From a virus: a stretch of 64,000 nt of DNA. A model generated the notes under the pieces. The model was not told the origin of the DNA. It was given only the letters and a program-made list of their open reading frames with translations, and did not search any database. A program made the position numbers and the translations under genes. The stretch covers positions 1,126-65,125 of the IMG/VR virus record IMGVR_UViG_3300031555_003913; one strand, given 5' to 3'. Every line of letters starts with the position of its first letter. The stretch's first letter is position 1. Of the stretch, positions 5,013 to 42,753 are shown one piece after another.

Positions 5013-5219
5013 ATGACAGAGGGTACGACAGGATTAAGCTGCGCAAACTGCCAGTGGGCAGATCAATGCGGCGGCAATGAGATTTGTGAGTATTTTGACT
5101 CGCTAGAAGATATGGATTGGGGAATCCAGAATGAAGCAGATGAATATGCGGCGGCTTATAGAAGCTATCGCCGGGCAATGGAATGTGATGCAAGAGAAGC
5201 ATCATTTTTTATTTGCTAA
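5013..5219 (+). CDS. Small Cys-rich hypothetical protein
   Basis: CxxC...C...C motif; fits the operon. Confidence 0.55.
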   Translation: MTEGTTGLSCANCQWADQCGGNEICEYFDSLEDMDWGIQNEADEYAAAYRSYRRAMECDAREASFFIC

Positions 5220-5244
5220 AATTTTTTAAGGGGGAAATGAGAAA

Positions 5245-9000: not shown

Positions 9001-10156
9001 GTGGTGTCGATCGAAATGCACAAGTTGTTATGGATACAGAAGATAAAATTACTGCAATGGCCGAAGAAGACACTCCGGAAAATAGAGTGTCTCTAGTATT
9101 GAGAACTATTAATTCTTTAATAGGCGAATGCAGTAATACATCAAGTTGTTTCCATAATAAGAAACCAAAGAGTGAAGAGGTAAAGAAAAAATATGAGAGC
9201 TACATTGACCTGCTCTCAATTATTAACGGTAATCGCTTTGCCGTTATAAAATTTCGTGAACCCCGCCCGGGGGTGTAGGGTTATACCCTGCTAACGGTCA
9301 ACTAAGCCGAAAGGCTAAGGTGGTAAGAGAACCTAAATCCATGCTGGATACGGTAATACCGTGCGAAGCACCGCAAGGTGAACGTGTAGAGACTAATGGT
9401 GATGAGTGTAACCATGTAGGAGAAGAGATAGGCACTTCTTCCAAGCGCGAAACTACATAGTAGAAGATATAGTCCACATTCCATGAAAATGGAAATTGTT
9501 TGAAGGCGATAGATTACGCAAAAACCGGGGTGTTATATAACATACCAAAACACATAGCAAAATATAGCAAACCCCTCCCCTACTTTATGAAGTATGCATC
9601 GGAGTACTACGGCGGCCTTCACACCTTCTCCAATGCGCCGAGCAATATGAATCGGCTCTGCAAAGATCTGGAGAAGTGGTCGCAGCGGCAGCATTACACC
9701 ATCAACAGCCGCGATTTCGATTGGACAATTATGTTGGATGATTCTATTCCACATGATGAAGATAAGCAGGAGCAGATAAATAGGACCTATCTTGAATTCT
9801 GCCGCGAGATGTCTACCCTCGCCCACGACCAGTCACAGATTCGTAAATATGGGGATGAATCACTGAGCAAATACGATGCACGTAACTTTACAATTAACTG
9901 GGGATATTATTACGATAGATATCGCGAACGTTGTCAGGAGATTTGCCCAGATATTAAAGAATTGGCAAACTTGGCAGTTAGAGCTTGCTATGAATATTAT
10001 CCTCAGAAAAAGAACAGTAAGTTTATGTGGCGTGTTGCCGGCGAAGGTATTGTACAAAATATTGACCAACAGACCTTCCCCCTTCCAATGCGGGATGATA
10101 AAGGTGAATATGAGTATTTGGGAAAACGCTATAGATTTGAAAATATAATTATATAA
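6030..10156 (+). CDS. yonO: YonO-like single-subunit RNA polymerase, spliced from exons 6030-6422, 7794-9230, 9503-10156 (827 aa)
   Basis: GADTDGD catalytic motif, RNPH and AIDYAKTG motifs; junctions read KTVLS|KYYSYRGL and SIING|KAIDYAKTG in frame. Confidence 0.88.
6423..7793 (+). mobile_element. Group I intron RNAP-I1 with homing endonuclease in P9
   Basis: P1 GAGU/GCUC with U-G; P10 AUUU/AAAU; P AATTGCTGGAA, Q AATCAGCAG, P7 GACTA (6601)/TAGTC (6665); terminal G7793; stem TTGAATTTGTGAT/ATCACAAATTCAA encloses the ORF. Confidence 0.92.
6736..7734 (+). CDS. Intron-encoded endonuclease, Vsr/DUF559-like PD-(D/E)xK domain with YGV repeats and Zn finger
   Basis: ADLLL...ILELDGSGH...GYKIIRF C-terminal motif; CDYCG; repeated NYGV units; GGAGG RBS. 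Confidence 0.8.
   Translation: MLILEREIEMIAVTEKNANYYRNKGYNVQLRIPFNVKPIDLPPGSNKKVWVKCDYCGKEYQMVFQKYIKRVLEATVHKCACRECEHLKIAESNMINYGMSTNALPEVKARKLQSNRDNYGVDNPMQLKKFQDKQKQTMVDRYGVEYSAQSSTLRAKTINTWMTNYGVNHPSKSNEILEKRNKNNLEKYGVEHTLQLDSVREQIAQTSYKNSTCKVSAEQLHLKELFSADLNYPIGKYNADLLLADDVILELDGSGHELNILYGNVSQEEFQRKEERRTRYILSQGYKIIRFSHKRHTRIRDWKYIDALEKCLDKLDAYNCVCYDFDTDELIV
9231..9502 (+). ncRNA. Group I intron RNAP-I2, ORF-less, 272 nt
   Basis: P1 AACGGU/GCCGUU; R GTAGAGACTA, S AAGATATAGTC; terminal G9502; splicing restores the frame. Confidence 0.92.
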
Positions 10157-10169
10157 GGGGGAATTTGAG

Positions 10170-11021
10170 ATTATTAATGAAAGAGTTGAGGTTCAACAGT
10201 ACCTCCAGGGGAAAAATCTGCATCGCGATATTGAATATCGTATTTGTTTGTTGCTGGCGAAGTGGTATTACGAACAGGGGTATACTACTGTAGAAGGAAT
10301 TAGAGAACAGTTAAAACACTGGGCTAAAGAAAATCGTTTTTACTTTGAGGTGGCCATGAATCCGGTGGCCGCCCGGGTAATTAATGATAAAATGAAACTT
10401 CAGGGAGATTATACGGTATATATCAGCGACAATGATATTAATGAGATAAAGGAGCGTTTTGACAATTACTATGAGCGTTTGGTAGCCTTAGGGGTGCTTG
10501 CTTATGCTAAAGTATATGCTGATAAAAATGGCGAATTTAAACTGTCTCATTCTGGTGTATCCAGATGGCTTGGTATAAATTTGCAAACGGTTACCAAATA
10601 CATTGATATGCTTGAGCGGCTGAAATACATAAAGAAAGTCAAGACAGGAACAACAAAGTCGTGGTATCAGAAAACAGTAGCGGTTCAGCTGAATAGATAC
10701 CGCATTTTAGTTCCGTATGAAAATACCGGCACTCATGCATTGGCAAACAACAACATTGCGGCGGCTTATGACGAGATCTTTAATGGGTGTAATTATGACG
10801 CAGAAGAATGGTATCCTATCCCAGGATTTAATGACTGGTACGAAGTTAGCAATATGAATCGTGTGAAAGCCAAAGAAAGAGAAATCGGATTGCGACTTTA
10901 TCCAGAAAAAATCATCAGACCTTTCAAGAGTAAGTCCGGTAAATTATATGCAAATTTAACAGACGAAAGCGGTAAACAGAGAAAACTTAGCATAGAAAAA
11001 CTCCTTGAAATTTCCAGATAA
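10170..11021 (+). CDS. Conserved phage HTH protein with C-terminal NUMOD4 motif (probable ATT start)
   Basis: Frame open upstream of 10248 to ATT after AAGGGGG RBS; central HTH-like segment; EEWYPIPGFNDWYEVSNMNRVK is NUMOD4-like. Confidence 0.7.
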   Translation: MINERVEVQQYLQGKNLHRDIEYRICLLLAKWYYEQGYTTVEGIREQLKHWAKENRFYFEVAMNPVAARVINDKMKLQGDYTVYISDNDINEIKERFDNYYERLVALGVLAYAKVYADKNGEFKLSHSGVSRWLGINLQTVTKYIDMLERLKYIKKVKTGTTKSWYQKTVAVQLNRYRILVPYENTGTHALANNNIAAAYDEIFNGCNYDAEEWYPIPGFNDWYEVSNMNRVKAKEREIGLRLYPEKIIRPFKSKSGKLYANLTDESGKQRKLSIEKLLEISR

Positions 11022-14298: not shown

Positions 14299-14384
14299 TG
14301 GAGGGCGGCAGAGTTGGAGAGCTGCGCCTGACTGTAAATCAGGTGCTTCAGGCTGAGTGGGTTCGAATCCCACCCCTCCAACCA
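14299..14384 (+). tRNA. tRNA-Tyr(GTA)
   Basis: Cloverleaf: TGGAGGG/CCCTCCA, CCTGA-CTGTAAA-TCAGG, GTGGG-TTCGAAT-CCCAC, long variable arm, encoded CCA. Confidence 0.88.
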
Positions 14385-14455
14385 TAATTTTCTCAGCGCT
14401 GGCATACCGCGCATATAGTATGCTCCCCTTTTATTTTTTACGGGAGGTAAGAGAC

Positions 14456-14761
14456 ATGGATTTTGATATGACGGAACTTGAAGTTTTGGATTTTATAAAT
14501 AGAAGATTTTCCTTTGAGGATAGATGGCTATCAGGCAACTGCTTTTATTTTGCCAAGATATTGCAAGATAGATTTGGCGGCAGTATATATTATTTACCTA
14601 TCATTGGTCATTTTGTTACTAAGATAGATGGTAATTATTATGATTGGACCGGCAAATTAAGCGATGAGCAATTAGCAGAAGATAGACTGACATCATGGGA
14701 TTATCTTAAATACGCAGATCCCCTACTTTATCATAAACTTATAAGAGATTGTGTGAATTAA
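14456..14761 (+). CDS. Hypothetical phage protein (GNCFYFA...GHFV...YYDWTG)
   Basis: GGAGGT RBS before ATG 14456; Cys/His/Asp motif. Confidence 0.7.
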   Translation: MDFDMTELEVLDFINRRFSFEDRWLSGNCFYFAKILQDRFGGSIYYLPIIGHFVTKIDGNYYDWTGKLSDEQLAEDRLTSWDYLKYADPLLYHKLIRDCVN

Positions 14762-14767
14762 AAATGT

Positions 14768-14844
14768 GCGACATTAGTCTAGCTGGTTAAAACGCCAGAC
14801 TGTTAATCTGGATAGCCTTGGTTCAAATCCAGGATGTCGCGCCA
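14768..14844 (+). tRNA. tRNA-Asn(GTT)
   Basis: GCGACAT/ATGTCGC acceptor; CCAGA-CTGTTAA-TCTGG; TTCAAAT loop; CCA. Confidence 0.88.
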
Positions 14845-14848
14845 TCAT

Positions 14849-14943
14849 GGACGGGTACCGAAGTGGTCATAACGGCGCAGACTTGAAATCTGTTGTGTCA
14901 GCTAGTACCTGACGCGTGGGTTCAAATCCTACCCCGTCCGCCA
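14849..14943 (+). tRNA. tRNA-Ser(TGA)
   Basis: GGACGGG/CCCGTCC; GCAGA-CTTGAAA-TCTGT; long variable arm; G73 and CCA. Confidence 0.9.
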
Positions 14944-31235: not shown

Positions 31236-34200
31236 ATGAAATATATGGCTGACCCTATTCGTATACAAATAACACAAATCAGTATTGACTCAAATAAGAA
31301 GCCAAAAATTTTTAGTACTTTACAAGCTGAGATTTATGGCCATTTATTTGATGTAAAGATAGGAAGTATTTCCTTAGCAGATGCTGTTAATTTTACAAAA
31401 CTAAGAAAAGATGTTGAGCTTGGAATAAATCAAAGCCCAATTAAAATACTTGTAAATCATGATATAATTCAAAATCAGATTGTCACAGCCGTTAAGTCAT
31501 CAGAATATATTCTTAATACTGGTGATGGAATTAATGTTAAAATAAATGAGTCTCAAATTCGTTCTGATATTGGCTCTGCAATGCAAGTTGCTATTTCAAA
31601 TACGGATGCACAGATAACATTACCGGAGATTAATTTAGGCGAAGTTTTTAAAAATTTGGAAATGCCTAAATCTTTTCCAACTGATTTACAAAAAATAATT
31701 AACAGTTTAGAAAAATTTACAAATGCATTTGAGAATAGTGGAGCAAAAATTACTAAACAGACAAATAATCTTAAAGCGTATCAGAGTGCAATTAAAGATT
31801 TAAGGAAGTCATATCTTCAAAATTTTGAATCTTCTTTGCAATATGCCGATGATAAATCAGCTCCTGAGTGGAAGAAAGCCGCGAGGTTGAACACTCAATC
31901 ATATAATGCAATTAACGAAAGACTTGCGGAACTAGGTGCGACAAAAGAAATTCGCGATAGCATTGCACAGAGCATCAGACTTGAAGAGGAAAAGATTCGT
32001 GCTGCCTTTGAAAACAAGCGGCTTAAGCAAATGGAAGCCGATGAGCAAAAAGAACTTAATGCTCATTTAAAAGAAGCAAATCGTTTATTGTCTGATTACC
32101 AGGCAAAATATAAAGCATACGTTTCTTTAGTTGGAAAAGAAGGTACTAAAGAGCATACTACGGCCTATGAACAGTTAGATGTTGCACGAAAAAGATTCGA
32201 AGACTTTTTTGACTCAGTGGAGCTACGCGAGAAAGACGCTGACGAGTTGCGCGAAACTTTTGATCGTGTGATGACAAGCTCTCATGAAAAGTATCAAATG
32301 AGTGAGTCTAGGACGTTTGACTCTTTAGTTGAACGTTCTAAGGAGTATAAAATTGAGCTTGAAAATTTATTAATTACTGATCGAAAGCTTAAGAATATGA
32401 CGATATTCGATTCTGATATCGTTAAAGACCAGGATTATGCTGGATATACTAAAAATCTTGAACGAGCTAAGTCAATTCTTGGTGACATCAGAAATATGGA
32501 TCAGTCCGGCGATTATGCAGGCATTGATAAGTTGTATAAAGAACTTGACGATTTAGTTATAAAAATCAACGCATTTTCAAAGGCTAAGCAAAATGCAAAC
32601 GCAGCGGTTCTTTCTGACAATAAGGAGATTGATAAGTTAAATAAACTTGGACAATCCTTAACAAGATATTTAAATGATTATGAAACCAGGTTGAAGAGAT
32701 TCCCTGATTTATATAGTCAATTTATTGAACTTCAGAGAAAGTTAAACAACAATGAGATTATTTCTGCTGATGCTGCTAGAGAACTAAATCGAATTCAGAT
32801 GGAAGCAAGAGCGGCTGGCGTAGAAGTTGATACGTTATGGCGCAAGCTCAAAAAGGCGTTTATGGCCAACATGCGTGGCCAGCTTGCAAACATGGGATGG
32901 ATGGCGATTACAACGTCATTTAGACAAGTTTACCAGAACGTCCTCCAGCTTGACACTGCAATGACCGAGCTGAAAAAGGTTACTAATGAGACGGAAGATG
33001 CCTATATTCAGTTCTTGGACAACGCTGAGAAGCGAGCTAAAAGGCTTGGCGCTACGTTAGTAGATGTAGTTAACGCAACGGCTTCATACAGCAGGCTTGG
33101 ATACGATATTCCTGATGCTTCTAATTTAGCCGATGTAGCGATTACTTATATGCATGTTGCAGATGGTGTCGACAGTATTGAAGACGCTACATCTATTTTA
33201 GTAAGTTCAATGCAGGGCCTTGGAATTGCAGCAAAAGATGCGATGTCCATTGCAGACATTTATAATGAAGTAAGTAACCGGTATGCTTCTACCGCTGGAG
33301 ATATTGGCGAAATAGTAAAAAGATCTGCTGCGACAATGAAAGTTGCCGGAAGCGATATCAATGAGATTGTAGCTCTTGGTGTTAGTGCGAATGAGGTTCA
33401 GCAAGATGCTGACGTCGTAGGGACTGCTTTGAAAAGTTTATCTATGCGTCTCAGATCTAGCAAGAGTGATTTAGAAGCTGCGGGCGAAGATACAGAAGGA
33501 ATGGCGGATTCTGTATCGAAATTGCGAGAAGAAATTCTTGCATTAACTGGCGTTGATTTGATGTTAAATGACGATACATTTAAGACGCCTTATACAATAT
33601 TAATGGAAATTGGTGAGGTTTGGGACGACCTTACTGATGTAAGCCGGGCTAATGTTAACCCGATTGTACAGAAATGTGCATAAAGAACAGATCTAAAACC
33701 AGTAACCCCTAAAGCTTGACTACTACAATGCGGATGAAATAAGCTGGCATGAAAGTAACGAAAGTAAAACAACAGTCAAGATGGTATATGGACAAAATCC
33801 TAAGTATCGATACAATGGGTATTTGGTCGCGAAGTCTCGAATAGAGATGTGTCAAACGACTATGGCATAGGCAGAAATGCAAAACCAGTACGGCGCAAAT
33901 TTATGGCGCGGGTGAAATTCCCTTAATTGGAAAAGGTCTGCCCTTCCAGGTAATGCTGAAGGTGAAGAAATAGTCTATTCTTATATGAAAATATAAGGTG
34001 TTATTTGATATTTAAATTTTAGATAAATGGATAAAAAATTTGATAAAGAGTATTCAACACAATTTGTGGACGAAATGAAATTTTTACAAGAGCATGGTAT
34101 TAATTATACTTTTGTAAAAACAATAAATGGGATTACGACATATAAATACGAAAAAACTCCTCAGCTATTTTATTGGCTGAGGATTTTTTATTGTCGATAA

Positions 34201-37200
34201 CTATTTTTTTGATTAATAATAGGTGATTAAATGAAATATTCATATGAGGAAATTAAATCCATGTTTGATGAACGTGGTTACGAGTTGGTTACAACAAAAG
34301 AAGAATTAGATGGTATGGCTGTAACAGATAAAATTAAATACATATGCCCAAAACATAGAGATTGCGGTATCCTGTCTATAACGTATCATCACCTGAAACG
34401 AAATCGTGGATGCAAATATTGTGGAAGAGAAAAAGCTGCGGAAAAGAGAACAAAGCCACTAGATGAATTCAGAGCAAAGGCAAAGGATTGTCTTGAATCT
34501 AAGGGATTAGAATTTGTTAATGTATTTCGTTCCAAAGACACAAATGGCCGTGCGGTGATAATGGTTGAATTTATCTGTCCAAAGCATAGAAAATATGGTA
34601 TCCAAACTACAAAATATGGAAATCTAATGTTTAGAGAAACTAATGGGTGTAAATATTGTATAGGAAAAGATATTCCAAAGGAAGAAATTTTCAAACAAAT
34701 ACAGGATATTCTGCCGCATATTGAAATTATTAGTGAGTTTAATGGTGTTAGTAAACCAATAAAATATCGCTGTAATATACATAATTATGAAGGCTGGTCT
34801 ACTTGTCAAAATTTATTGGCGGGAAGAGCTTGTTATTATTGTGGCTTAGAAAAATTAAGAAAACATAATACACTTTCTCAAGATGAATTTGTAGAAAGAG
34901 TCTGCAAGATAAATAAAGACATTGGAATCATAGGAGAATATCGAGGATTTGATTATCCCGTAAAAGTACACTGTAATAGATGTGGTAACACTTGGGATGC
35001 ACCCGTGTATTCATTATATCGTAGGGAGCATGGATGCCCAGTGTGTAATATGTATACTGGAGAAGGCGTAATCTATGAATTGCTTACTCAATGGGGGTAT
35101 AATTTTGATACGCAGCACAGGTTTAAAGATTGTGTCGATAAGAAACCTCTTCCATTTGATTTTTATTTAGAAGATTATAATATAGCAATTGAGTTCGATG
35201 GAATATTGCATTATATTCCTAAAATTCTTAAAAGAGGTATGACCCAAGAAACTGCAGATTATTCACATAAAAAGACATTAGAACATGATTTTATTAAAGA
35301 AAGTTATTGCGCAGATAATGGTATAAAATTAATAAGAGTTCCATATTGGGAATATGACGAAGGAAATGTCCCATATTATTTATTCGATCATTTAGTAGAA
35401 TATGGAGCTATGGAATTGATTACCTAAATATATAAAATATCAAATAACCTATGTCGAGTTATGACCGACATATAATATTAAGTAACGTTGGTGAATTATT
35501 ATTCGGGAAGCGTCAGGCTTCGATAGGATTTAGTATCCTTGAGAACTATGAACGCGCGCAAGAAATATATGAAGCGACTCTGGAAGCTCAAGGTTCTGCA
35601 GAATTAGAGCACCAAAGATATCTCGATTCCATTCAGGGACGGCTCGATAAGCTCACAGCTTCTTGGCAATCCCTGTCTAACACACTCCTGGATGATGGTC
35701 TTGTAAAAGACTTTGTATCCGGAGCAACAACAGCCCTCGACGTTGTAAATGCAATCGTCGAACAACTTGGCCTTATGCCAGGTCTTATTGCTGCCGCAGG
35801 CACTGTCTGGGCGCAGCACAATAATGTAGGTAAAGAATGTGCCCTCTTACTGAGAGCCGCATAGCAATCAGTAGGATGTTACCGGCCGTCAACCGGTAAT
35901 ACAAAACTTTCAAATTGCTGGAAAAAGCTAAAGCTCCCCTGCCCTTTTGGGAGAGGAAACTCAGAAATAACTGGGGAGATGAGGTATGCTGAGATAAAAG
36001 CCGCTTTGTGGTGCTAACCCTCGTTACAATGCTTAATCAGCAGCGAAGCCCTTAGGGGAACGCTCAACGACTACTTGGAAGTTGGAGTCTGTCATCTATA
36101 AAATATGCGTTTGGTGACAGGCTTTTAATGGATAGTCTGAACTGTGCCGAGAGGTACAGAGGGAGGATGAAGTGCCTCCCCGCCGTAATTACGATAATCG
36201 CCCTCCCCTTCTTTGAGGAGAGAAGGATGGGAAAATATAAGCCGGACATGGTGGGCCGGCAGGTTGTTGCCGGCAACAGAAAAACTGGCCAATTTTATGA
36301 GAAAAGGAATGATAAAATGAAAAAGAATTTTTATGAAAAATATTGGTGGATACCACATGTAGCGTCTAGTGTTGCATTGGTTGTATCACTTCTAACTCTA
36401 ATAGTAAGGCTATTGCTGATATTATAATTGCAACTACCGATAATCCAACAGGAAGCCAAAATTGAAGCATGTTTTATTAATTTACAGAAATTCTCTGTTT
36501 TTATTTGTTGCATTTCATCTATTTTTGTGTATACTTAAAGTAAAGACATATATAGAATAAGTTTGAAGGGGGGAATTTTGAATGACATTTAAACCAACTA
36601 ATGTAGCTTTTATTATTGCGCCAGAAAAAGCTGAAGATTTCCTAAAGTCAAAAGATGCAAGCGCTAAAAAAGCTATGGAGCGTTTTTATGCACACCAGCC
36701 AAAAAAAGGCATAAAGACCCCGTATAAAGGCAGTAATGAATAGGTATAGATTTGGCGAAGAAATAGAATACAAGTATAATCTATTAGAGGCTGATGATTT
36801 TAATAATCTTCAGCTTTTTAGTTGTGGAAATACACAAATGGATTATCATTTACATAATGAAGTAATTGTAGAGGGTAAGCTTAGGAGTGAAGATGGGCTA
36901 TATTATAAATTCTACGATGAAAAAACGAATGAAATTTTAGCTGTTGTGTCGTTAGCCACTTCTGGTATTTTAAGACAAATAGGTACATATAGTCATATAT
37001 TACCTGCAATAAAAATTGATATTTTTGCTGTAGATAAAAGATATCAAAAGATGCATTTCAACGAAGAGTCTCAGTCGTCATATATACCGGATGAACATTA
37101 TTATTTTAGTGACGAAGTGATTGGCAATATTATAAGACGTTGCATGGAAATTAGTGAAAATTTTGCATTAGCACAATTTGTTGTTGCGTATGCTGATGTG

Positions 37201-40200
37201 AAAGCTTATCGTTTCTATGAACGAAATGGATTTGGCAATTTTGAAAATTTTATGATAGAAGAACATAATATGGAAGTTTCAAAAAATATTCCAATGTATC
37301 TCAATCTTTTTGAATAACGCAAAAGACCAAGCTAAATAGCCTGGTCTTATTTTATTTCCACGTATATCCACAGTTATCACACGCATTAACCATTTTATTC
37401 ATACCAGCTACACCCGCTACCGCTGCTACATCCAGGAAGCCGGTAGGTAAACACCATAGAAAGGAGAACCGTAATGACATATGAATTAGTTTTACAAAAC
37501 ATGTCAGACTACGAGTCATACTTAATCAAACTTGTCGAATCAGATGCGCTGCTATTAGATAAAGTGTTTGTATTTCCTTTTAAATTCGTTCTTCGGTAGT
37601 TAGTCTACGTAGATTCCGACTTTATTTAAAGCCTTTTTGAATTCACGTGCAAACTTAGATGTATCTACAGAAATATCCTCTCCACAATACTTACATTTGT
37701 ACAAGAATTTTGATGCTTTAAACACATCTTTTGATTTAAACGTTTCGGAACGTCTACATTTTGGACATTCAAGTTCAAATTTAGGATTATCGTCACAAAA
37801 TGCTTTTAAGTATTTTTCCATGGTATCATCTCCTATTTCCACGTATGGCCACAATCGTTGCAACAGTTAATCATCTTATTAGAACCAACACCGCCAGCAG
37901 CAGCGGCAACATCTACGAAGCCAGTTACTGCGGCAGTAGCGATTGCCCTACCCCATTTGAAGCCGCGCTTGGTTTTACCGAGATTAGTGGAGCCGCATTT
38001 TGGACAGTGAGGTTTGGAATTATATTCACGAGTGATTTGTTCTGCTTCTTCTATCATAGAGTTATACACCTTCTGGTGTTTTTCAAGATCGTAATCAGTA
38101 TCCTTAAGAAATTCTTTCGTAACAAATTCAAATAATTCGAAACCATTTTGAGGATCTCTATGATAAACGTCGTAGAATCTATAACTCCACTCATCATCAT
38201 CGCTGCCGGTATAAATCATTTCCCCTCCACATTCTGGACATATTAAATCCGCACAGCAGTCAAACCATGTTGCTGTACTACATTCTTTGCAAATAAAAAC
38301 ATCTTCAAGTTCATAACTATAACTCATATAATCACCCTCCTCTATTTAGTGATTATATCAAAAATAGTAATTACGGTCAATAAAGTAACAGTTGACATTC
38401 AATAGCACTAGCGATATGAGTATTGCTGGTATACTATCTTCATATAAAGGAAACTCAGGCACAATAGTCAGTGGATCTAAAAATATTGCCGCATTAAAGG
38501 AATGGAACGCTGCAATTAAAGAAGGTGGAAAAGAGCTAAAACGACTTGGTACGATAAAAAAACAGCTCGATAAAGAGTACAGAGGTCTTGTAAGTGTATT
38601 AAAAAAGGAAGCGGTAGAACTTAAAGTTGTTGGAAGAAATGCTGTTGTCGGCGCTAACGGACTCAAAGGCTTAGCTACCGCAGCTAAGCTTGTAGGTAAA
38701 GAAATGCTTCTTGCTGCCGGTCAGTTTGCAATCTTTGCGGCGGCAACTTGGGCAATCAGTAAGGCAGTTGAAGGATTAGTATGGCTCTATGACGAGTTCT
38801 CAATGTCGATGAAGGCGACGGCTAAGAGAGCTGAAGAATCTGCAGCAGCACTTCAGGAAACTGAATCTGAAATAGAATCTCTTGAAGGCGAACTTGAAAC
38901 AGTTAGAGATCGTATTGAAGAGATTCAGTCTTTAGGCTCTTTATCTCTAACCGAACAATCAGAATTAAAAACACTTCAACTTGAAAGCGCTGAATTAAAG
39001 AAACAAATTAAGCTTCTTAAAGAAAAAAAGAAAATCGAAGAAGCTGAGCTCATTGAGGATAATATCGATGCAATTCATTCGTATGATTATCAAACAACTA
39101 TCAAAGTTGATTATGGAACTGCGAATGCGTATAATGACTCCCTTACACTTCCTGAGGAATTTGCATATAGAACAGAACAGTTAAAAAAGTATAGAGCTCT
39201 TCTTGCAGATTTAACTACCGATGATGAAAATTATGAACATTATCATGAGTTCTATACTAATCAAATCAAAGAGCAAAGCGAAGCCATTACTGAACTTAGC
39301 CTTGCAATTGATGGATATAGAGTTTCATTAGATGACATTCCGGAAGCAGAAAAAAACTACTTTGAACAGTTATACGCCGCTGAGAATAAAGCATTATTGG
39401 AAAATGGCACAATGTCCATCATGGACTTTATTAGTGCTGGTTTAGATGATAATGGGCTTGAAGAGTTCAATCAGCAAGTTGATGAAATGGCCAAAGCCGG
39501 AAATGCAACGAAAGATTCCATAGAGGACGCTTTTGGCAAAACAATCATTCCTATTCTTCATGAAGCCGGTCTTGTTGGGGACGAAGCGGCAGATGCACTT
39601 TTAAATCACATTTCTTCTCTTCGCAACGTCGGCGATGTAGTTGAACAAGTCATCGGTAATAACTCTGCTTTCTCCGATGTTCACTCAAAGATTGATAAGA
39701 TAACTACAACCGGATTTGATATCAATACTGATAGTGTCAGAACTGCGCTTGGCGAAGACTTTACTGCCGCCATGGATAAGGCTGGTGTATCTATCGATGA
39801 CCTTTGCAGTTGGCTAAAGACTCTGCAGAGTGAAGTTGACAGTTTTACTATCAAAGATATTACGGAAGATTTAACCGCTATTGAAGAGAAAATGGACGCC
39901 CTTTCAGATGCATACTATGAGTTTGTAGATGAATCTGGAAAAGTTAAATCTGCAACGCTTGATAGCATTGCAGAAACCTTCGCTGGTCTCGATGATACAA
40001 GAGCATTAGAGAACTTTATAAATATTCTTGGTGATTCATCTTCTACTATTTCGGAAGTTAAAGAAGCGCTTAACGGCGTAGTAGATGCATATTTTGCAGA
40101 AGAAGCTACGGCTAAACGTTTAACTGAAGCGAATAGAGATCTTTATGAATCTCAGTTAAAGCGACTTGGTATTGCGAATTATGAAGATGTTGTTTCTTAT

Positions 40201-42753
40201 AATTTAGCAGTCGCAACATTAAAAGAGTTAAGCGCAAAAGAAAAACTAACAGACGCAGAAAAAGAACAGTTAATAGCTGCTCAAAACACTGTCGATGAAT
40301 TAGATGCCGAAGGCGATGCGTTATCATATTTGGCTACTCAATTATTGGATGCAGCAACTCAGACTGCATTATTAGAATCTAAGCAAAATGGTATAGCCGA
40401 TTCTAATTTCGCATCTGTATTACAGAGTCATGCTGCAGCACTTTTAATTGTAGCAGAAGCTGCAGGTCTCTCTGTCGATAACATTAAGGCTTATCTTGAT
40501 GCAATAAGATATAAGGAATATTATGAAAGCCATATCGCTAAGGGTGACCGTGTTTCAGATGACGATATAAAACGATATGAAGATAAGTTATCAATCATTG
40601 ATAAAAATCAAGAAACGGTTGATAAACTACACGATCTTCTTTATGGTGGCGTAGAGACTGATACGACGCCTCAACGTACCAAAGACCAATCCGGAAAAAC
40701 TGCAGCGGAAGAAGCGTATGAAAAAGCTAAGAAAAAGCTCGACAAGCAGTTGGAACGTAATAAGATTACATACAATCAGTACTATGAATCTCTCGTTGAC
40801 TTAGGCAACAAGTACTACAAGGGCGACGCTGAAAACATAAATGAGCATTATGCTACATTGGCTGATGTTCGTCGTGACGCTTACGCCAAGTATCAAGGTG
40901 ACTTGGATAAGAACCTTGAAAAAGGTATTATTTCTCTTCAGGTTTACCATGATAAGTCTATGGCCCTTTCTAAGAAGTGGCTTGATGGCCGCAAGGCTAA
41001 CGAAGAGGATTACAAAGAAGCTGTAGAAGCTATATATGACCAGATCAACGATTATTGGGGCGACCGTATGTCCAAGATGGAAACCCAGATGGATCGTTGG
41101 AATTTGGATCAGACATGGGATCCTGATTTAACAAGGGTAAAAGTCTGGGAAAATGAACTGGCCGCACTGGATGCTGACTATAAAGCCGGCCTCTTTGATT
41201 CAGAAAGAGACTATTTTGATAAGCGTTATGAACTGCTCGAAAAGCTAAGCGATGCTCGTAAAGAATCTTATGAAGCTGAGCTTGATTTAATCGAAGAACA
41301 AAAGGACTCTATCCAGGAGCTCATTGACCTTACAAGCGAAATGCTCAAACAGCAGAAGGAAGATGAGATCGAAGCCCTGGAAGAACAGGCAAAACTGTAT
41401 TCTGACATAGTCTCCAAGAAAAAAGAAGCGCTTGACATTACTCGCCAGGAGGCTGACTATCGACGTGAGTTGGAAGAGCAAACTGCTGCACTGACTGAAC
41501 TTCAGGCAAAGGCCGCAGTATTGGCGCTCGATGACAGTCGTGCCGGCCGAGCTGCATATCAGGAAGTTCTGAAGCAGATTAAGGAACAGCAGCAGACAAT
41601 TGCTGACACCCAAGCTGATCATACATACGAAGGCAGTATTACCGCCCTTGATGAAGCTGAAGCAGCTTATCAGGAATCCGTCGATAAGAAAATCCAGGCA
41701 ATCCAAGATTTGTTAGACCACGCCGGCGAATGGCTTGAATATGTGTACTCTTATATCAAGACCACCAATCCATCTAAGTTGTTCGCTGAACTGCGGGACT
41801 ATAATTATCAGTATGGCTCTGGCATAAATGATACTGTTGACGAAATTCAGAAATCGTCTGCTCAGTTGCTGAGTTCCTTTAATAGCAGTATTCCAGATAT
41901 CCTTGCTGCCTTAAAACAACAGAAAGAATCTGCTGAAGCAGCTATTGAAGCGGCCGGCAATGAAGAGGACTCTACTCCATCCGGAAACTATAAAAGCCAG
42001 ATTAGTTCTGCTCTAAATAAGAAGATACAGGCAAGCACAACTGAGAACAACAAACATTCTACCAACCGTGGATTGGTGACTGATATCAAAAAAGAGACAG
42101 GTCTTGATTCATGGTATGATGAAAAGAATAAAGTTATCTATATGGGTTCCGAAGGCGACCGCAGGGTGACTGCCGGTGCTTATAACCTAATTGAACAGCT
42201 TCGTGAATTAAACAATTCAGGTGGAACGCGCAAAGAAAAAGAAGTCGCCATGGAAGAGATCATGACAAAGCTTAAGCGTAAATGGTCTTATACAGGCGCT
42301 TATCTTGAATGGAAAGGCAATACGGCGAAACTCTATAAGAGCAAGGATTTACAGGTCTTCCATACTGGTGTACAGCAAGGTATTGTTGGCGGCAACCAGT
42401 CTGGCAACAGACATCAGCGCGAACTACTTGCTATGCTTCAGGCTGGCGAAATTGTTCTGAACCGACAGGACCAAAATGTACTGCTTGCAAATCTGCAGAC
42501 GCTTGAAACTATGGCAACTACATTAAAGAAGCTTCAGCTGGATACTATGCCGGTTGGCAATGTAGGGGCAACAGAGGTCAACGTAACTGTTCAGGCACCG
42601 ATTACTATTACTGGTTCTGCTGATGCGGATACATTGAAGGAACTCGAAAAGTTTAAGAAGAATATTTCTAAGGATGTTCTTGGCGAGGTTACTGACGCAA
42701 TGAAGAAACGTGGATATAGCAGCAACACTGCTGCAAATGCACGTAAGAAGTAA
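31236..42753 (+). CDS. Tape measure protein, spliced from exons 31236-33649, 35483-35831, 38395-42753 (2373 aa)
   Basis: TP901-type core LDTAMTELKKVT...VGTALKSLSMRLR; junctions DVSRA|NVGELLFGKRQ and NNVG|TFNS; coiled coils; FHTG...AMLQAGEIVLN near the C-terminus. Confidence 0.88.
34027..34200 (+). CDS. Small intron-encoded protein (57 aa)
   Basis: MDKKFDKEYSTQFVDEMKFLQEHGINYTFVKTINGITTYKYEKTPQLF...; manually translated. Confidence 0.6.
   Translation: MDKKFDKEYSTQFVDEMKFLQEHGINYTFVKTINGITTYKYEKTPQLFYWLRIFYCR
34231..35427 (+). CDS. Intron-encoded endonuclease: Zn-finger repeats plus C-terminal Vsr-like PD-(D/E)xK domain
   Basis: Four CxxH/C...CxxC units; LPFDFYLEDYNIAIEFDGILHY...IKLIRVPYW. 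Confidence 0.82.
   Translation: MKYSYEEIKSMFDERGYELVTTKEELDGMAVTDKIKYICPKHRDCGILSITYHHLKRNRGCKYCGREKAAEKRTKPLDEFRAKAKDCLESKGLEFVNVFRSKDTNGRAVIMVEFICPKHRKYGIQTTKYGNLMFRETNGCKYCIGKDIPKEEIFKQIQDILPHIEIISEFNGVSKPIKYRCNIHNYEGWSTCQNLLAGRACYYCGLEKLRKHNTLSQDEFVERVCKINKDIGIIGEYRGFDYPVKVHCNRCGNTWDAPVYSLYRREHGCPVCNMYTGEGVIYELLTQWGYNFDTQHRFKDCVDKKPLPFDFYLEDYNIAIEFDGILHYIPKILKRGMTQETADYSHKKTLEHDFIKESYCADNGIKLIRVPYWEYDEGNVPYYLFDHLVEYGAMELIT
36317..36427 (+). CDS. 36-aa single-TM peptide (type I toxin-like)
   Basis: MKKNFYEKYWWIPHVASSVALVVSLLTLIVRLLLIL; AAAGGA RBS. Confidence 0.5.
   Translation: MKKNFYEKYWWIPHVASSVALVVSLLTLIVRLLLIL
36508..36535 (+). promoter_or_regulatory. Sigma-A type promoter inside the intron
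   Basis: TTGCAT-16 nt-TATACT, upstream of the small ORF and GNAT gene. Confidence 0.55.
36582..36743 (+). CDS. Putative antitoxin (53 aa)
   Basis: MTFKPTNVAFIIAPEKAEDFLKSK...; GAAGGGGGG RBS; overlaps the GNAT start by 8 nt. Confidence 0.6.
   Translation: MTFKPTNVAFIIAPEKAEDFLKSKDASAKKAMERFYAHQPKKGIKTPYKGSNE
36736..37317 (+). CDS. GNAT acetyltransferase, TacT/AtaT-like toxin candidate
   Basis: FSCGN..MD..L, LPAIKI..FAVDKRYQ, A..FYERNGF motifs. Confidence 0.75.
   Translation: MNRYRFGEEIEYKYNLLEADDFNNLQLFSCGNTQMDYHLHNEVIVEGKLRSEDGLYYKFYDEKTNEILAVVSLATSGILRQIGTYSHILPAIKIDIFAVDKRYQKMHFNEESQSSYIPDEHYYFSDEVIGNIIRRCMEISENFALAQFVVAYADVKAYRFYERNGFGNFENFMIEEHNMEVSKNIPMYLNLFE
37321..37353. terminator. 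Bidirectional terminator within the intron
   Basis: AAAAGACCAAGCTA-A-TAGCCTGGTCTTATTTT. Confidence 0.65.
37352..37444 (-). pseudogene. C-terminal relic paralogous to 37833..38327
   Basis: TGFLDVAAVAGVAGMNKMVNACDNCGYTWK* versus TGFVDVAAAAGGVGSNKMINCCNDCGHTWK*. Confidence 0.8.
37474..37599 (+). CDS. Small protein (41 aa)
   Basis: AAAGGAG RBS; MTYELVLQNMSDYESYLIKL... Confidence 0.45.
   Translation: MTYELVLQNMSDYESYLIKLVESDALLLDKVFVFPFKFVLR
37600..37821 (-). CDS. Zn-ribbon protein (73 aa)
   Basis: CPKC...CKYCG; AGGAG RBS. Confidence 0.7.
   Translation of the reverse strand: MEKYLKAFCDDNPKFELECPKCRRSETFKSKDVFKASKFLYKCKYCGEDISVDTSKFAREFKKALNKVGIYVD
37833..38327 (-). CDS. Double Zn-ribbon protein with Gly/Ala hydrophobic segment
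   Basis: CKEC/CPECG, CPKCGS...CNDCG; GAGGAGGG RBS. Confidence 0.8.
   Translation of the reverse strand: MSYSYELEDVFICKECSTATWFDCCADLICPECGGEMIYTGSDDDEWSYRFYDVYHRDPQNGFELFEFVTKEFLKDTDYDLEKHQKVYNSMIEEAEQITREYNSKPHCPKCGSTNLGKTKRGFKWGRAIATAAVTGFVDVAAAAGGVGSNKMINCCNDCGHTWK

What the first reader, a model, noticed from the sequence alone, without database searches (positions are those of the whole stretch)
35832..38394. Group I intron in the tape measure gene used as a multi-gene cargo island, with no homing endonuclease
Seen: a complete group I core (P, Q, R, S at 35913-36137), a 6-bp P10, P9.0 and terminal G; splicing rejoins NNVG|TFNS in frame. A 10-bp stem (36183-36192 with 38367-38376) loops out about 2.2 kb. 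The loop holds at least six ORFs on both strands, a promoter and a terminator, none endonuclease-like. Established: phage group I introns usually carry nothing or one endonuclease. Inference: the ribozyme loop is a neutral landing pad for accessory (defence/TA) genes inside an essential structural gene.
Basis: partly seen in the sequence, partly recalled or inferred. Interest (0 to 1): 0.93.

Follow-up and report, generated by a model that had tools for sequence, protein, structure and literature searches.

The report
Cargo-carrying intron in tape-measure gene
A gut phage's essential tail-length gene is interrupted by a self-splicing-type (group I) intron whose ribozyme occupies the first 360 bases, while 2.2 kb of swappable accessory genes, some read backwards, sit in a loop before the far splice site; splicing itself has not been observed.

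Summary
Rfam's group I model matches 35822-36159 (79 bits, E 9e-20). The 5' site follows a GGU codon. The intron ends on G at 38394. A 6-bp P10 and a 10-11-bp stem (36182-36192 with 38367-38377) tie the far 3' site to the core. The join is in frame. Related viral, proviral and metagenome contigs carry the same intron after the same Gly codon, with the exon resuming at x-Phe. Their ribozyme ends are up to 98-99% identical, yet they hold eight different gene loads (introns of 1148-4292 nt). The closing stem and P10 change by compensatory substitutions.

The window's load is two convergent units. One is a small protein plus a GNAT-fold acetyltransferase, a toxin-antitoxin-like pair (modelled complex 0.75, best control 0.12). 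The other is an antisense operon of zinc-ribbon proteins behind a near-consensus promoter. No nuclease or transposase domain was found.

No RNA data exist, so splicing is inferred. Group I introns in tape-measure genes and IStrons are in print. I found no report of a multi-gene, two-strand, endonuclease-free load. This scan has flagged the same phenomenon before on other DNA. Verdict: new variant of a known kind, high interest.

The parts
35451..35831 (+). Tape-measure exon 2. This is the ORF as listed; the true exon probably starts near 35483, after the upstream intervening sequence. It ends on the Gly codon GGT at 35829-35831.
   Evidence: phrog_4211 (tape measure) profile positions 832-947 follow directly on those of the 815-aa upstream ORF, 562-833. 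tblastn to L003, L005 and L006.
35832..38394 (+). Group I intron, 2563 nt. The ribozyme lies in the first ~360 nt, followed by a cargo loop and an 18-nt tail ending on G.
   Evidence: Rfam RF00028, 79 bits. Splice sites from P1, P10 and the frame. Same layout in relatives.
35829..35843 (+). P1 and guide sequence. Exon GGU (35829-35831) pairs with GCC (35841-43), including the U-G pair at the splice site. The loop between holds the P10 guide GAAUGU (35835-35840).
   Evidence: Read. GGT|AAA...GCCC is invariant in 7 of 7 aligned introns. P1 has only 3 exon base pairs.
35845..35901 (+). P2 (35845-35853 with 35868-35876) and P2.1 (35877-35885 with 35893-35901).
   Evidence: MFE fold of the cargo-less construct. 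The three pairs that extend P2 differ compensatorily among the intron types (read).
35905..36137 (+). Catalytic core. P3 is 35905-13 with 36075-83. P4, P5 and extensions run 35917-36041. P6 is 36042-64. P7 is 36069-73 with 36133-37. P8 is 36084-96 with 36113-25.
   Evidence: cmscan alignment and MFE fold. P7 is taken from the Rfam alignment, because it forms a pseudoknot that the fold cannot show.
36142..36180 (+). P9 hairpin (36142-36159) and P9.1 hairpin (36161-36180).
   Evidence: Fold of 36142-36200: -23.0 kcal/mol, z -3.9, 0 of 200 shuffles as good.
36182..36192 (+). 5' strand of the long-range closing stem (P9.2-like).
   Evidence: Homologous strands in L005, L006, L017 and L081.
36193..38366 (.). 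Cargo loop, 2174 nt. It starts with about 100 nt of G+C-rich hairpins (36193-36290); the rest is AT-rich (28-35% G+C) coding DNA.
   Evidence: Composition, fold of 36160-36300, ORFs.
36582..36743 (+). 53-aa ORF, antitoxin-like partner of the acetyltransferase. It overlaps the next gene by 8 nt.
   Evidence: No family hit. Modelled to bind the next protein: score 0.75 against best control 0.12.
36736..37317 (+). 193-aa GNAT-fold acetyltransferase.
   Evidence: phrog_1758 acetyltransferase, E 7.8e-10. Atlas feature score 0.95 and TM 0.86 to acetyltransferase clusters. No Pfam hit at E 0.01 or better.
37323..37348 (.). Hairpin between the two convergent units, with a U-run on both strands (terminator-like in both directions).
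   Evidence: Fold: + strand -12.5 kcal/mol (2 of 200 shuffles as good); - strand -16.2 kcal/mol (0 of 200). The terminator scan did not list it.
37352..37444 (-). Relic of a second copy of the C-terminal zinc-ribbon module of the 164-aa protein.
   Evidence: blastp 66.7% over 30 aa, E 1.6e-12.
37600..37821 (-). Small zinc-ribbon protein. It is 73 aa from the ATG at 37821 (the listed ORF starts at a TTG at 37863). It is the second gene of the antisense operon.
   Evidence: ORF list. Weak zinc-ribbon hits below cut-off. A GGAG lies 8 nt before the ATG (read).
37833..38327 (-). 164-aa protein with an N-terminal zinc ribbon and a C-terminal zinc ribbon split by a Gly/Ala-rich hydrophobic stretch. 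It is the first gene of the antisense operon.
   Evidence: phrog_2546, E 2.8e-15. Homologs sit at the same place and strand in L005 (45.6% over 57 aa, E 2e-15) and, through L005, in L006. LITAF-like is a lead only, 0.86.
38352..38380 (-). Sigma-70-type promoter-like site for the antisense operon: TTGACC, 17 nt, TG-extended TATAAT. It overlaps the 3' strand of the closing stem.
   Evidence: Best site of the scan, 11 of 12 plus TG. It is a consensus match only.
38367..38377 (+). 3' strand of the long-range closing stem.
38378..38394 (+). 3' tail with a GUAACA motif and the terminal G (38394).
   Evidence: Read. AAAGTAACAG is shared with L005 and L006, and GTAACA with L017 and L081.
38395..42753 (+). 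Tape-measure exon 3. Its first six bases are the exon strand of P10.
   Evidence: phrog_4211 profile positions 2003-2623. Frame is open from 38386.

Best explanation
35832-38394 is one group I intron in the tape-measure gene of an uncultivated SPbeta-like gut phage.

The ribozyme (P1-P9.1) is made first. A 10-11-bp AU-rich stem then closes off a 2.17-kb loop. An 18-nt tail ending in G and a 6-bp P10 bring the remote 3' exon into the active site, so the exons join in frame (Gly|Thr-Phe). These steps are inferred from structure and comparison.

The loop is neutral for the tape measure because it is spliced out, and it has become a storage place for accessory genes. Here it holds a sense-strand pair (a 53-aa protein plus a GNAT acetyltransferase, toxin-antitoxin-like). 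It also holds an antisense operon of zinc-ribbon proteins, with its own promoter and a shared two-way terminator hairpin. That layout is typical of genes expressed from a prophage while late genes are silent.

Cargo is exchanged between phages by recombination, with the conserved ribozyme and the 3' tail plus exons serving as flanking homology (inferred from breakpoints). The intron has no endonuclease of its own. It is probably inherited vertically or carried along by conversion tracts started by nearby endonucleases, for example the 398-aa HNH gene 400 nt upstream (speculative).
For: Ribozyme:
- RF00028 gives 79 bits, full length.
- The cargo-less construct folds into P10, P2, P2.1, P3-P6, P8, P9, P9.1 and the closing stem.

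3' site:
- P10 is 6 bp, and 8 of 733 candidate sites are as good.
- The frame is kept.
- Nothing resembling a ribosome-binding site precedes the TTG/ATG at 38392/38416 (read).

Relatives:
- A motif scan found real family members in 5 of 10 viral, 1 of 25 genome and 16 of 62 metagenome stretches.
- All members have GGT|AAA at the 5' site. All 13 with both ends resume at x-Phe.
- The computed joins have no stop codon in 4 of 4 relatives and align across the junction.
- LIBA2945 and TR-TP1 have unbroken frames at this site.

Covariation, read:
- In the closing stem, pair 3 is G-C in the window and A-U in the others. Pairs 8-10 differ compensatorily among the window, L006 and L017/L081.
- In P10, two pairs change from G-C to A-U between the window and L006 (10 bp there, 1 of 822 sites as good).
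- The longest complement to the 16 nt after the last core hairpin lies 13-44 nt from the 3' site in 4 of 7 introns.

Cargo turnover:
- Introns are 1148, 1818, 2020, 2479/2514, 2563, 2837, 3598 and 4292 nt long.
- L018 and L019 share nt 1-386 (99%) and the last 303 nt (92%), with nothing alike between. L017 and L081 share nt 1-1183.

Other:
- The assembly is real: contigs of independent runs bridge 35584-35861, 36112-36282, 38096-38411 and 38255-38418.
Against: No RNA evidence exists, so splicing is unobserved.

Structural weak points:
- P1 has only 3 exon base pairs plus 1-2 on the intron side.
- P10 counted from +1 is 0 bp in L005 and 1 bp in L017 and L081. It reaches 5 bp there only if a first-position mismatch or a one-base bulge is allowed.
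- In L018 and L019 the proposed stem is only 7-8 bp and is not the best complement. L005 has none of 7 bp or more without G-U pairs.
- An RNAduplex control did not separate the true tail from other windows.
- The stem alone is within chance for this AT-rich DNA.
- The standard Rfam model is below its cut-off for the L017 type (44.7 bits) and silent for the L018 type.

Transcription obstacles:
- A sense-strand terminator-like hairpin and a strong antisense promoter lie inside the pre-mRNA. Full-length transcription needs read-through.
- The core is finished about 2.2 kb before the 3' site, which invites premature 5' cleavage.

Covariation counts come from only 5 alignable types and were read by eye.
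Confidence: 0.78

Rival explanations
1. Split gene with a relic ribozyme. The ribozyme fold is kept but does not, or barely does, join exons across 2.2 kb. The tape measure is made as two polypeptides, with the C-terminal part starting at TTG 38392 or ATG 38416. The cargo simply sits between two genes.
For: No RNA data. A terminator-like hairpin and an antisense promoter lie inside the would-be pre-mRNA. P1 is short. P10 is weak in 3 of 7 introns. Depositors annotate split tape-measure genes in Geobacillus virus E3 and TR-TP1.
Against: A useless ribozyme should decay. Instead the core, the exact Gly|x-Phe junction, P10 and the closing stem are kept with compensatory changes, while exon 2 has diverged to about 42% amino-acid identity. 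No Shine-Dalgarno-like sequence precedes 38392 or 38416. The frame is continuous in every relative. Homologs unbroken at this site exist.
Confidence: 0.13
2. Transposon- or IStron-like insertion. The 2174-bp block was delivered into a small intron by a mobile element. The 9-bp direct repeat GTAATTACG on both sides (36184-36192 and 38367-38375) would be a target-site duplication rather than an RNA stem.
For: The stem sequence is nearly palindromic, so its two strands are also a direct repeat (read). IStrons have exactly this layout: the insertion lies downstream of P9.2 and is flanked by AU-rich inverted repeats (PMC4227781, passages).
Against: No transposase or TnpB family was found in any cargo protein of the window. 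No terminal inverted repeats appear at the block ends. In L006, L017 and L081 the two strands are complementary but not direct repeats, and they change compensatorily. The first ~100 nt inside the block are G+C-rich hairpins like the ribozyme, not like the cargo. This rival concerns origin and could be true of an ancestor without changing how the intron works now.
Confidence: 0.05
3. The cargo includes an unrecognised homing or maintenance nuclease, so this is an ordinary mobile intron with passengers. One candidate is the conserved antisense zinc-ribbon protein. Others are the CoiA-N or NYN proteins of relatives.
For: The gene next to the 3' splice site on the minus strand is homologous in the window, L005 and L006. 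L018 has a CoiA_N plus topoisomerase-type zinc-ribbon protein, and L019 has an NYN-domain protein. Zinc ribbons often flank HNH domains (abstract of PMC3592412, seen in the listing).
Against: No HNH, GIY-YIG, LAGLIDADG, PD-(D/E)XK or Vsr-type hit in the window's cargo. The 164-aa protein has no room for a nuclease domain between its ribbons, and it carries a hydrophobic Gly/Ala stretch. The L017 and L018 types have unrelated genes at that position.
Confidence: 0.04

Closest known systems
Group I introns in tape-measure genes of Bacillus cereus-group prophages (TMP-IVS1, -IVS2, -IVS3; Tourasse and Kolsto 2008, PMC2504315; I read section 8)
   Same: Group I ribozymes interrupt the tape-measure gene of temperate siphoviruses of Firmicutes. 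A gene can have several sites. Some copies lack a complete endonuclease gene. P1 and P10 are adapted to the site.
   Different: Those introns are described as carrying an endonuclease gene, a remnant of one, or nothing. No multi-gene, two-strand load is described in the section I read. The introns here are 1.1-4.3 kb, and their load differs between near-identical ribozymes.
IStrons (CdISt1, BcISt1 and relatives; Tourasse et al. 2014, PMC4227781, passages; Hausner et al. 2014, PMC3984707, passages)
   Same: The ribozyme is at the 5' end. Foreign coding DNA sits in the 3' part downstream of P9.x and is enclosed by an AU-rich inverted-repeat stem. The 3' splice site lies beyond it, so an insertion into a gene is made harmless by splicing.
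   Different: IStrons carry IS605-type transposase genes on the forward strand, are multi-copy and transpose. Here there is no transposase and only one site, in one gene. The genes lie on both strands with their own promoter and terminator, and the load is unrelated accessory genes.
Phage T4 nrdD (sunY) intron type, with an ORF between the catalytic core and a 3'-terminal domain (recalled from memory: Michel et al. 1992, not seen here; the review passage mentions sunY only for endonuclease-gene invasion)
   Same: A long insert separates the core from the 3' splice site, so long-range pairings must bring the site back. The core may wait for the 3' domain.
   Different: sunY holds one sense-strand endonuclease gene of about 0.8 kb. 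Here there are several genes, antisense transcription and no endonuclease.
Phage morons and lysogenic-conversion cassettes (recalled concept; no paper read here)
   Same: Autonomous units with their own promoter and terminator, often antisense to late genes, variable between related prophages, and lower in G+C.
   Different: Morons sit between genes. Here they sit inside an essential gene and depend on RNA splicing to be harmless.
GNAT toxin / ribbon-helix-helix antitoxin pairs (TacAT, AtaRT, KacAT; recalled)
   Same: A small upstream gene overlaps a GNAT-fold gene. In the model, the small protein covers the GNAT groove.
   Different: There is no DUF1778 or other family hit for the 53-aa protein and no Pfam GNAT hit at E 0.01 or better. 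Toxicity is untested.

Membership tests
Group I intron (Rfam RF00028) | Conserved core P3-P9 with the P, Q, R and S elements | tested here: met
   cmscan gives 79.0 bits against a gathering score of 50, model positions 1-253, E 9e-20. It was missed by the whole-window run with default filters.
Group I intron (Rfam RF00028) | [quoted passage not shown] | tested here: met
   Exon GGU pairs with GCC at 35841-43, and this is invariant in 7 of 7 aligned introns. P1 is short, with 3 exon pairs.
Group I intron (Rfam RF00028) | Terminal G, and P10 between the guide sequence and the 3' exon | tested here: met
   G38394. The 6-bp P10 is matched or beaten at 8 of 733 sites that follow a G. P10 covaries with L006.
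Group I intron (Rfam RF00028) | P9.0 pairing next to the terminal G | tested here: inconclusive
   AA/UU is possible here and AC/GU in L005, but I found no such pair in L006 or L017 (read).
Group I intron (Rfam RF00028) | Self-splicing with guanosine | not testable with these tools
   No RNA holder was listed. The laid runs were contigs.
Mobile (homing) group I intron | Intron-encoded homing endonuclease (HNH, GIY-YIG, LAGLIDADG, PD-(D/E)XK and others) | tested here: not met
   No such family in the window's cargo ORFs in Pfam, PHROGs, PADLOC or NCBIfam. The same searches do find HNH and homing-endonuclease families in the neighbouring ORFs 34231-35427 and 6703-7734.
IStron | IS200/IS605-type transposase genes (TnpA, TnpB) within the 3' part of the intron | tested here: not met
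   No transposase family. The only related hit is a sub-threshold 'Zn_ribbon_IS1595' match (21.2 bits against a cut-off of 25.4) in the 87-aa ORF.
IStron | Insert downstream of P9.x, enclosed by an AU-rich inverted-repeat stem | tested here: met
   Stem 36182-36192 with 38367-38377. The layout is as described in PMC4227781.
IStron | Multiple copies per genome at many sites | tested here: not met
   The 369-nt core has 1 match in the 65-kb record. All family members found sit at the same tape-measure codon. The record is estimated at 40% complete.
GNAT/RHH toxin-antitoxin pair | GNAT-fold acetyltransferase | tested here: met
   phrog_1758, E 7.8e-10. Atlas 0.95 by features and TM 0.86 by structure to acetyltransferase clusters. 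Pfam found nothing at E 0.01 or better.
GNAT/RHH toxin-antitoxin pair | Cognate small protein that binds and blocks the toxin | tested here: inconclusive
   The modelled complex scores 0.75 (best of 3 controls 0.12). Runs agree in at least 68% of contacts, and the partner's pLDDT is at least 65. The mark was reached by 51 of 78 solved complexes and 2 of 108 mismatched pairs. Because GNAT toxin-antitoxin complexes have been solved (recalled), the pass may reflect likeness. No antitoxin family hit.
GNAT/RHH toxin-antitoxin pair | Growth arrest by the toxin, relieved by the antitoxin | not testable with these tools
   Needs expression assays.
Known anti-phage defence systems (PADLOC) | Match to a defence-system protein model | tested here: not met
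   0 of 10 cargo proteins of the window, L005, L006 and L003 matched.

The most novel reading that the evidence does not exclude
A lineage of group I introns in SPbeta-like phages of gut Clostridia has turned from a selfish element into a standing cargo bay inside an essential virion gene.

The ribozyme and a covarying long-range stem plus P10 let it excise loops of 0.7 to 3.9 kb. The loop is exchanged like a cassette between phages, with the conserved RNA ends as recombination arms. It holds genes that are expressed antisense from the prophage (membrane zinc-ribbon proteins, toxin-antitoxin-like pairs, nucleases) and even a holin-endolysin pair.

Because the core is finished long before the 3' site, closure of the remote stem would act as the switch that licenses splicing. 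The internal terminator would restrict full-length tape-measure mRNA to the phage's own YonO-like polymerase.
Probability: 0.55. Interest if true: 0.88.

Novelty: new variant of a known kind. Interest (0 to 1): 0.8.

Why it matters
Textbook bacterial and phage group I introns carry nothing or one homing endonuclease, and IStrons carry a transposon. Here the loop of a ribozyme serves as a safe harbour for unrelated, independently transcribed genes inside an essential structural gene. Near-identical ribozymes hold quite different loads.

If splicing is confirmed, three things follow:
- A bacterial ribozyme can find a 3' splice site several kilobases away, across antisense transcription and a terminator.
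- There is a new kind of accessory-gene hot spot in prophages of gut Firmicutes. Current annotation hides it, showing 'split' tape-measure genes with 'intergenic' islands.
- It offers a natural design for carrying payloads in a self-excising RNA.

It also warns that default Rfam scans miss such introns. The whole-window run missed this one.

Tried and rejected
DNA and protein searches for close relatives:
- megablast of 35000-39500 against phage records found no match.
- tblastn of the first 702 aa of exon 3 against phages found no match.
- The search for related loci with the same piece gave 60 pattern matches, none confirmed.
- blastn of the core hit only short stretches (8-34% of the query) of the conserved core of unrelated phage introns.

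RNA evidence:
- No RNA holder was listed for 35300-38900.
- I laid 4 runs (X1, X2, X5, and X18, which is only guessed to be RNA). All are contigs, and there is no joint at the splice sites.
- The one joint listed (36614 to 37020, with 4123 other letters between, side 20) is a short chance match in X18.
- X18's 649-nt contig covers 35673-36320 unspliced with 19 differences. It says nothing either way.

RNA tests that gave nothing clear:
- The RNAduplex test of the 5' segment against the tail, compared with other windows, was uninformative. Long bulged duplexes form everywhere (window: 25 of 200 control windows as good; L018: 280 of 299).
- MAFFT, both by the tool and L-INS-i, misaligned the window's P6-P8. 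I therefore built no consensus fold or covariance model. A1 also has 498 columns, over the 400-column limit. Covariation was read by eye.
- P9.0 is not supported across relatives.

Cargo proteins:
- The single-sequence AlphaFold model of the GNAT protein had mean pLDDT 38.4, so I ran no fold search.
- phmmer against PDB sequences gave one chance-level hit, E 0.51.
- I ran no further search on cargo proteins.

Other points:
- The target-site-duplication reading of the palindromic 9-mer is kept only as a minor rival.
- L003 (MT837120.1) has its tape-measure frame broken after the homologous GGT, with a good P1 (6 bp) and at least 2.4 kb of ORFs on both strands. It has no Rfam hit at E 0.01 or better, and the contig ends before any 3' site. 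I did not count it as a member.
- Rows dropped before counts: 5 of 10 viral, 24 of 25 genome and 46 of 62 metagenome pattern matches lacked the core motifs and were treated as chance. Of 22 member loci, 8 ended 478-1595 nt after the 5' site and gave no length. L056's end was placed by blastn, not by the tail pattern.
- Literature: searches found no paper describing a multi-gene or antisense non-endonuclease load in a phage group I intron. The library lacks most subscription journals.

Full report
WHAT THE WINDOW IS

The window is 64,000 of the 65,125 bases of an IMG/VR virus record, estimated 40% complete. Almost all genes lie on the + strand: anti-repressor, portal, tail genes and three tRNAs.

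A 480-aa ORF (7836-9278) resembles what depositors call 'RNA-dependent RNA polymerase' in Thomasclavelia and Enterocloster phages, and it matches SPbeta-type Bacillus phages at 25% identity. From memory this is the YonO-type phage RNA polymerase family; no call names it so.

The tape-measure gene is in three pieces. PHROG 4211 (tape measure) matches as follows:
- ORF 31236-33683 at profile positions 562-833.
- ORF 35451-35831 at profile positions 832-947.
- 38395-42753 at profile positions 2003-2623.

The first gap (about 33650-35482) holds a 57-aa ORF and a 398-aa HNH-type endonuclease gene. The second gap is the finding.

Ribozyme. Run on 35700-38500, Rfam's group I model matches 35822-36159 over its full length, at 79.0 bits and E 9e-20. 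The whole-window run at gathering threshold found the intron at 6413-6691 but not this one. This is a filter effect.

Splice sites. The exon ends on GGT (35829-31). Its GGU pairs with GCC at 35841-43, giving the U-G pair. The nine bases between contain GAAUGU, which is exactly complementary to the six bases after G38394. Joining 35831 to 38395 keeps the frame. Among 733 positions that follow a G, 8 give a P10 at least as long.

Closing stem. The 10-bp stem is there, and reaches 11 bp with a G-U pair. A fold of the intron without its loop returns P10, P2, P2.1, P3, P4, P5, P6, P8, P9, P9.1 and this stem. P7 is seen in the Rfam alignment. On its own the stem is not special, because 42 inverted pairs of 9 nt or more occur in these 2.65 kb. 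It is, however, the longest Watson-Crick complement anywhere downstream of the 16 nt that follow P9.1.

Not confirmed. I could not confirm P9.0.

Assembly. The DNA arrangement is not an assembly artefact. Contigs from other faecal runs, identical in sequence, bridge the 5' site (35584-35861), the core-loop border (36112-36282) and the 3' site (38096-38411 and 38255-38418).

RELATIVES

Finding them:
- A tape-measure query found two related viral contigs, L005 and L006. Both have an Rfam-positive group I core at the homologous place (71.1 and 52 bits).
- A motif shared by the three (P1/P2 region) was then scanned.
- Viral contigs: 5 of 10 stretches matched were real members.
- Genome contigs: 1 of 25 was real, in Ruthenibacterium lactatiformans 585-1.
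- Metagenome contigs: 16 of 62 were real.
- The members fall into five types besides the window: L005, L006, L017/L102, L081/L095/L103 (the same ribozyme as L017), and L018/L019/L056 and others.
- Rfam gives 44.7 bits (below cut-off) for the L017 type and nothing for the L018 type, though both show the P, Q, R and S sequences.

Splice sites in relatives:
- Every member has GGT|AAA at the 5' site.
- In the 13 loci where both ends are in hand, the intron ends on G and the exon resumes with x-Phe: Thr, Leu, Ile, Met or Ile followed by Phe.
- The computed joins of 4 of 4 relatives have no stop codon. They align with the window's join straight across the junction.
- The uninterrupted tape measure of Clostridioides phage LIBA2945 also aligns across it.
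- In the cultured Thomasclavelia phage TR-TP1 the exon-2 homolog lies in a 790-aa open frame with no break here. HNH genes interrupt that gene elsewhere.
- So the region is intragenic, and the intron is present in some lineages and absent in others.

RNA PAIRINGS ACROSS THE CARGO

P10:
- Counted contiguously from the first exon base, it is 6 bp in the window, 10 in L006 (1 of 822 sites as good), 5 in L018 (11 of 938) and 5 in L019 (6 of 578).
- It is 0 in L005, and 1 in L017 and L081. In those three, five pairs follow a first-position mismatch or a one-base bulge (and reading).
- Between the window and L006, two P10 pairs change from G-C to A-U on both sides.

Closing stem:
- Its 5' strand directly follows P9.1 in the window, L005, L006, L017 and L081. 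Its 3' strand lies 13-44 nt before the terminal G.
- Lengths are 10, 8 (with one G-U), 11-13, 9-10 and 10 bp.
- Pair 3 is G-C in the window and A-U in the others. Pairs 8, 9 and 10 differ on both sides among the window, L006 and L017/L081.
- The L018 type has a different 7-8-bp stem (GUGGUCAU with AUGACCAC) at the analogous place, but it is not the best complement there.
- By the objective test, 4 of 7 introns are clear, 1 fails and 2 are ambiguous.
- The three pairs that extend P2 also covary among all types.
- These counts are by eye on five alignable types and should be redone with a structure-aware alignment.

THE CARGO

Window:
- Sense strand. A 53-aa ORF overlaps by 8 nt a 193-aa protein with a GNAT fold (phrog_1758 E 7.8e-10; Atlas 0.95 and TM 0.86; no Pfam hit).
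- The modelled complex of the two supports binding: score 0.75, best of 3 controls 0.12, runs agreeing in at least 68% of contacts, partner pLDDT at least 65. The mark was reached by 51 of 78 solved complexes and 2 of 108 mismatched pairs.
- Because GNAT toxin-antitoxin complexes are solved (recalled), this shows likeness rather than proof.
- Middle. A hairpin at 37323-37348 with U-runs on both strands lies between the two units.
- Antisense strand. The best promoter-like site of the region (TTGACC, 17 nt, TG-TATAAT; 11 of 12) is followed by GGAGG and the ATG of a 164-aa protein.
- That protein has an N-terminal zinc ribbon and a C-terminal ribbon split by a hydrophobic Gly/Ala stretch (phrog_2546 E 2.8e-15; the LITAF-like lead is only 0.86).
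- Next come a 73-aa zinc-ribbon protein and a 30-codon relic of a second copy of the C-terminal module (66.7% identity).
- ORF 36128-36427 overlaps the ribozyme and is probably not a gene.
- No nuclease, transposase or PADLOC defence family was found.

Relatives:
- L005: one antisense homolog of the 164-aa protein.
- L006: SPP1-type holin plus a CHAP/PG-binding endolysin on the sense strand, and an antisense homolog plus an 88-aa ORF.
- L017: a membrane protein, a lipoprotein-like protein and a small membrane protein.
- L018: a DUF4325 protein, a membrane protein, a CoiA_N/topoisomerase-zinc-ribbon protein and a 60-aa ORF.
- L019: an NYN-domain protein.

Turnover:
- Intron lengths are 1148, 1818/1819, 2020, 2479/2514, 2563, 2837, 3598 and 4292 nt.
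- L018 and L019 share nt 1-386 at 99% and the last 303 nt at 92%, with nothing alike between.
- L056 has the same ends with a further 1.4-kb insert.
- L017 and L081 share nt 1-1183 at 98% and then differ.
- Breakpoints thus fall just after the ribozyme or within the loop, and just before the tail.
- This is what cassette exchange by homologous recombination would leave. That mechanism is an inference.
- No empty allele was seen among the 14 introns of known length.

HOW IT MOST LIKELY WORKS

Late transcription runs through exon 2 into the intron. Ribosomes stop at the in-frame TAG at 35862-64. The core folds, but the 3' site appears only after another 2.2 kb.

I infer that the closing stem and P10 then dock the tail, and that exon ligation follows, as in other group I introns whose ORF separates the core from the 3' domain (T4 nrdD type, recalled). 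Whether the core waits for the stem is unknown.

The sense-strand hairpin must be read through. A homolog of that polymerase family is encoded in the window, but nothing here tests the idea.

The antisense operon, with a host-type promoter, would be expressed from the prophage. Two relatives are classed as proviruses.

The intron has no endonuclease. The HNH gene 400 nt upstream could drag it along by co-conversion (speculation).

WHAT IS KNOWN

- Group I introns at three sites of tape-measure genes in Bacillus cereus-group prophages are in print, with or without endonuclease genes (PMC2504315, section 8 read).
- IStrons have the same layout: ribozyme, then an insert after P9.2 enclosed by an AU-rich stem. 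They carry forward-strand transposase genes and are multi-copy (PMC4227781 passages; PMC3984707 passages).
- Gut jumbo phages have many small group I introns, with splicing seen in metatranscriptomes (PMC12880540 passages).
- My six searches found no report of a multi-gene, two-strand, endonuclease-free load in a phage group I intron.
- Supplements are closed and subscription journals are mostly absent, so this is not proof of absence.
- This scan has reported the same phenomenon on other DNA at least eight times. None of those stretches resembles this one by sequence look-up.

VERDICT

The membership tests gave:
- Group I intron: met.
- Homing intron: not met.
- IStron: not met, though it works like one.

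This is a new variant of a known kind. The main gap is direct evidence of splicing.

Noticed in passing
L006:11728-13101 (IMGVR_UViG_3300031555_005503): In this relative the sense-strand cargo of the same intron is an SPP1-type holin plus a CHAP/PG-binding endolysin. These are the only Holin_SPP1 and CHAP matches in the 110,740-base record, which is estimated 64% complete. A lysis cassette may therefore sit inside an intron of the tape-measure gene.
   Followed up: partly
window 33650-35482: The first gap in the tape-measure gene holds a 57-aa ORF and a 398-aa HNH-type endonuclease gene (phrog_559, E 1e-53). It has R- and S-like motifs, but no Rfam hit at E 1 or better. L005 has an ORF-less, Rfam-positive intron at the same junction (63 bits). 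L003 and L006 are unbroken there.
   Followed up: partly
window 6030-9278: A group I intron (6413-6691, 89.4 bits) with a homing-endonuclease ORF (6703-7734, phrog_12131) splits a gene of phrog_8308. The 3' part of that gene matches 'RNA-dependent RNA polymerase' of Thomasclavelia and Enterocloster phages and SPbeta-type phages. It is probably the YonO-type polymerase; that name is recalled.
   Followed up: partly
L005:8851-9979 and 10444-10678: This relative has three Rfam-positive group I introns in one tape-measure gene (79.4, 63 and 71.1 bits). The first is followed by a 254-aa ORF.
   Followed up: no
L003 (MT837120.1) 5060-7667: The tape-measure frame breaks after the homologous GGT, with a possible 6-bp P1 (CUGGGU with GCCCAG). 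ORFs on both strands follow, including a zinc-ribbon protein. There is no Rfam hit, and the contig ends before any 3' site. It may be a different intron at the same codon.
   Followed up: partly
window 36184-36192 and 38367-38375: The closing stem is nearly palindromic (CGTAATTACG), so its two strands are also a 9-bp direct repeat flanking the 2174-bp loop. This looks like a target-site duplication, but relatives' stems are not direct repeats.
   Followed up: yes
window 36193-36290: The first ~100 nt inside the loop are G+C-rich and fold into two strong hairpins (fold of 36160-36300: -50.3 kcal/mol, z -2.3). In L006 the same position holds hairpins followed by T-runs that look like sense-strand terminators (read).
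   Followed up: no
window 36318-36427 and 37474-37599: There are two small sense-strand ORFs. One is a 36-codon hydrophobic peptide, the tail of the listed 99-aa ORF. The other is a 41-aa ORF preceded by AAAGGAGAA. It lies between the antisense genes and overlaps the relic ORF. Whether either is a gene is unknown.
   Followed up: no
window 35822-36159: The default-filter Rfam run on the whole window missed this 79-bit intron. The genome search with RF00028 also missed the homologous introns of G001 and G002. Surveys with default filters will under-count this family.
   Followed up: yes
window 14299-14940: Three tRNA genes lie in a row (48-64 bits).
   Followed up: no
PQ571309.1 23364-31193 (Thomasclavelia phage TR-TP1): This cultured relative has its tape-measure gene annotated in pieces, separated by two HNH endonuclease genes (gp28 and gp30). 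The gene is unbroken at the site studied here.
   Followed up: partly
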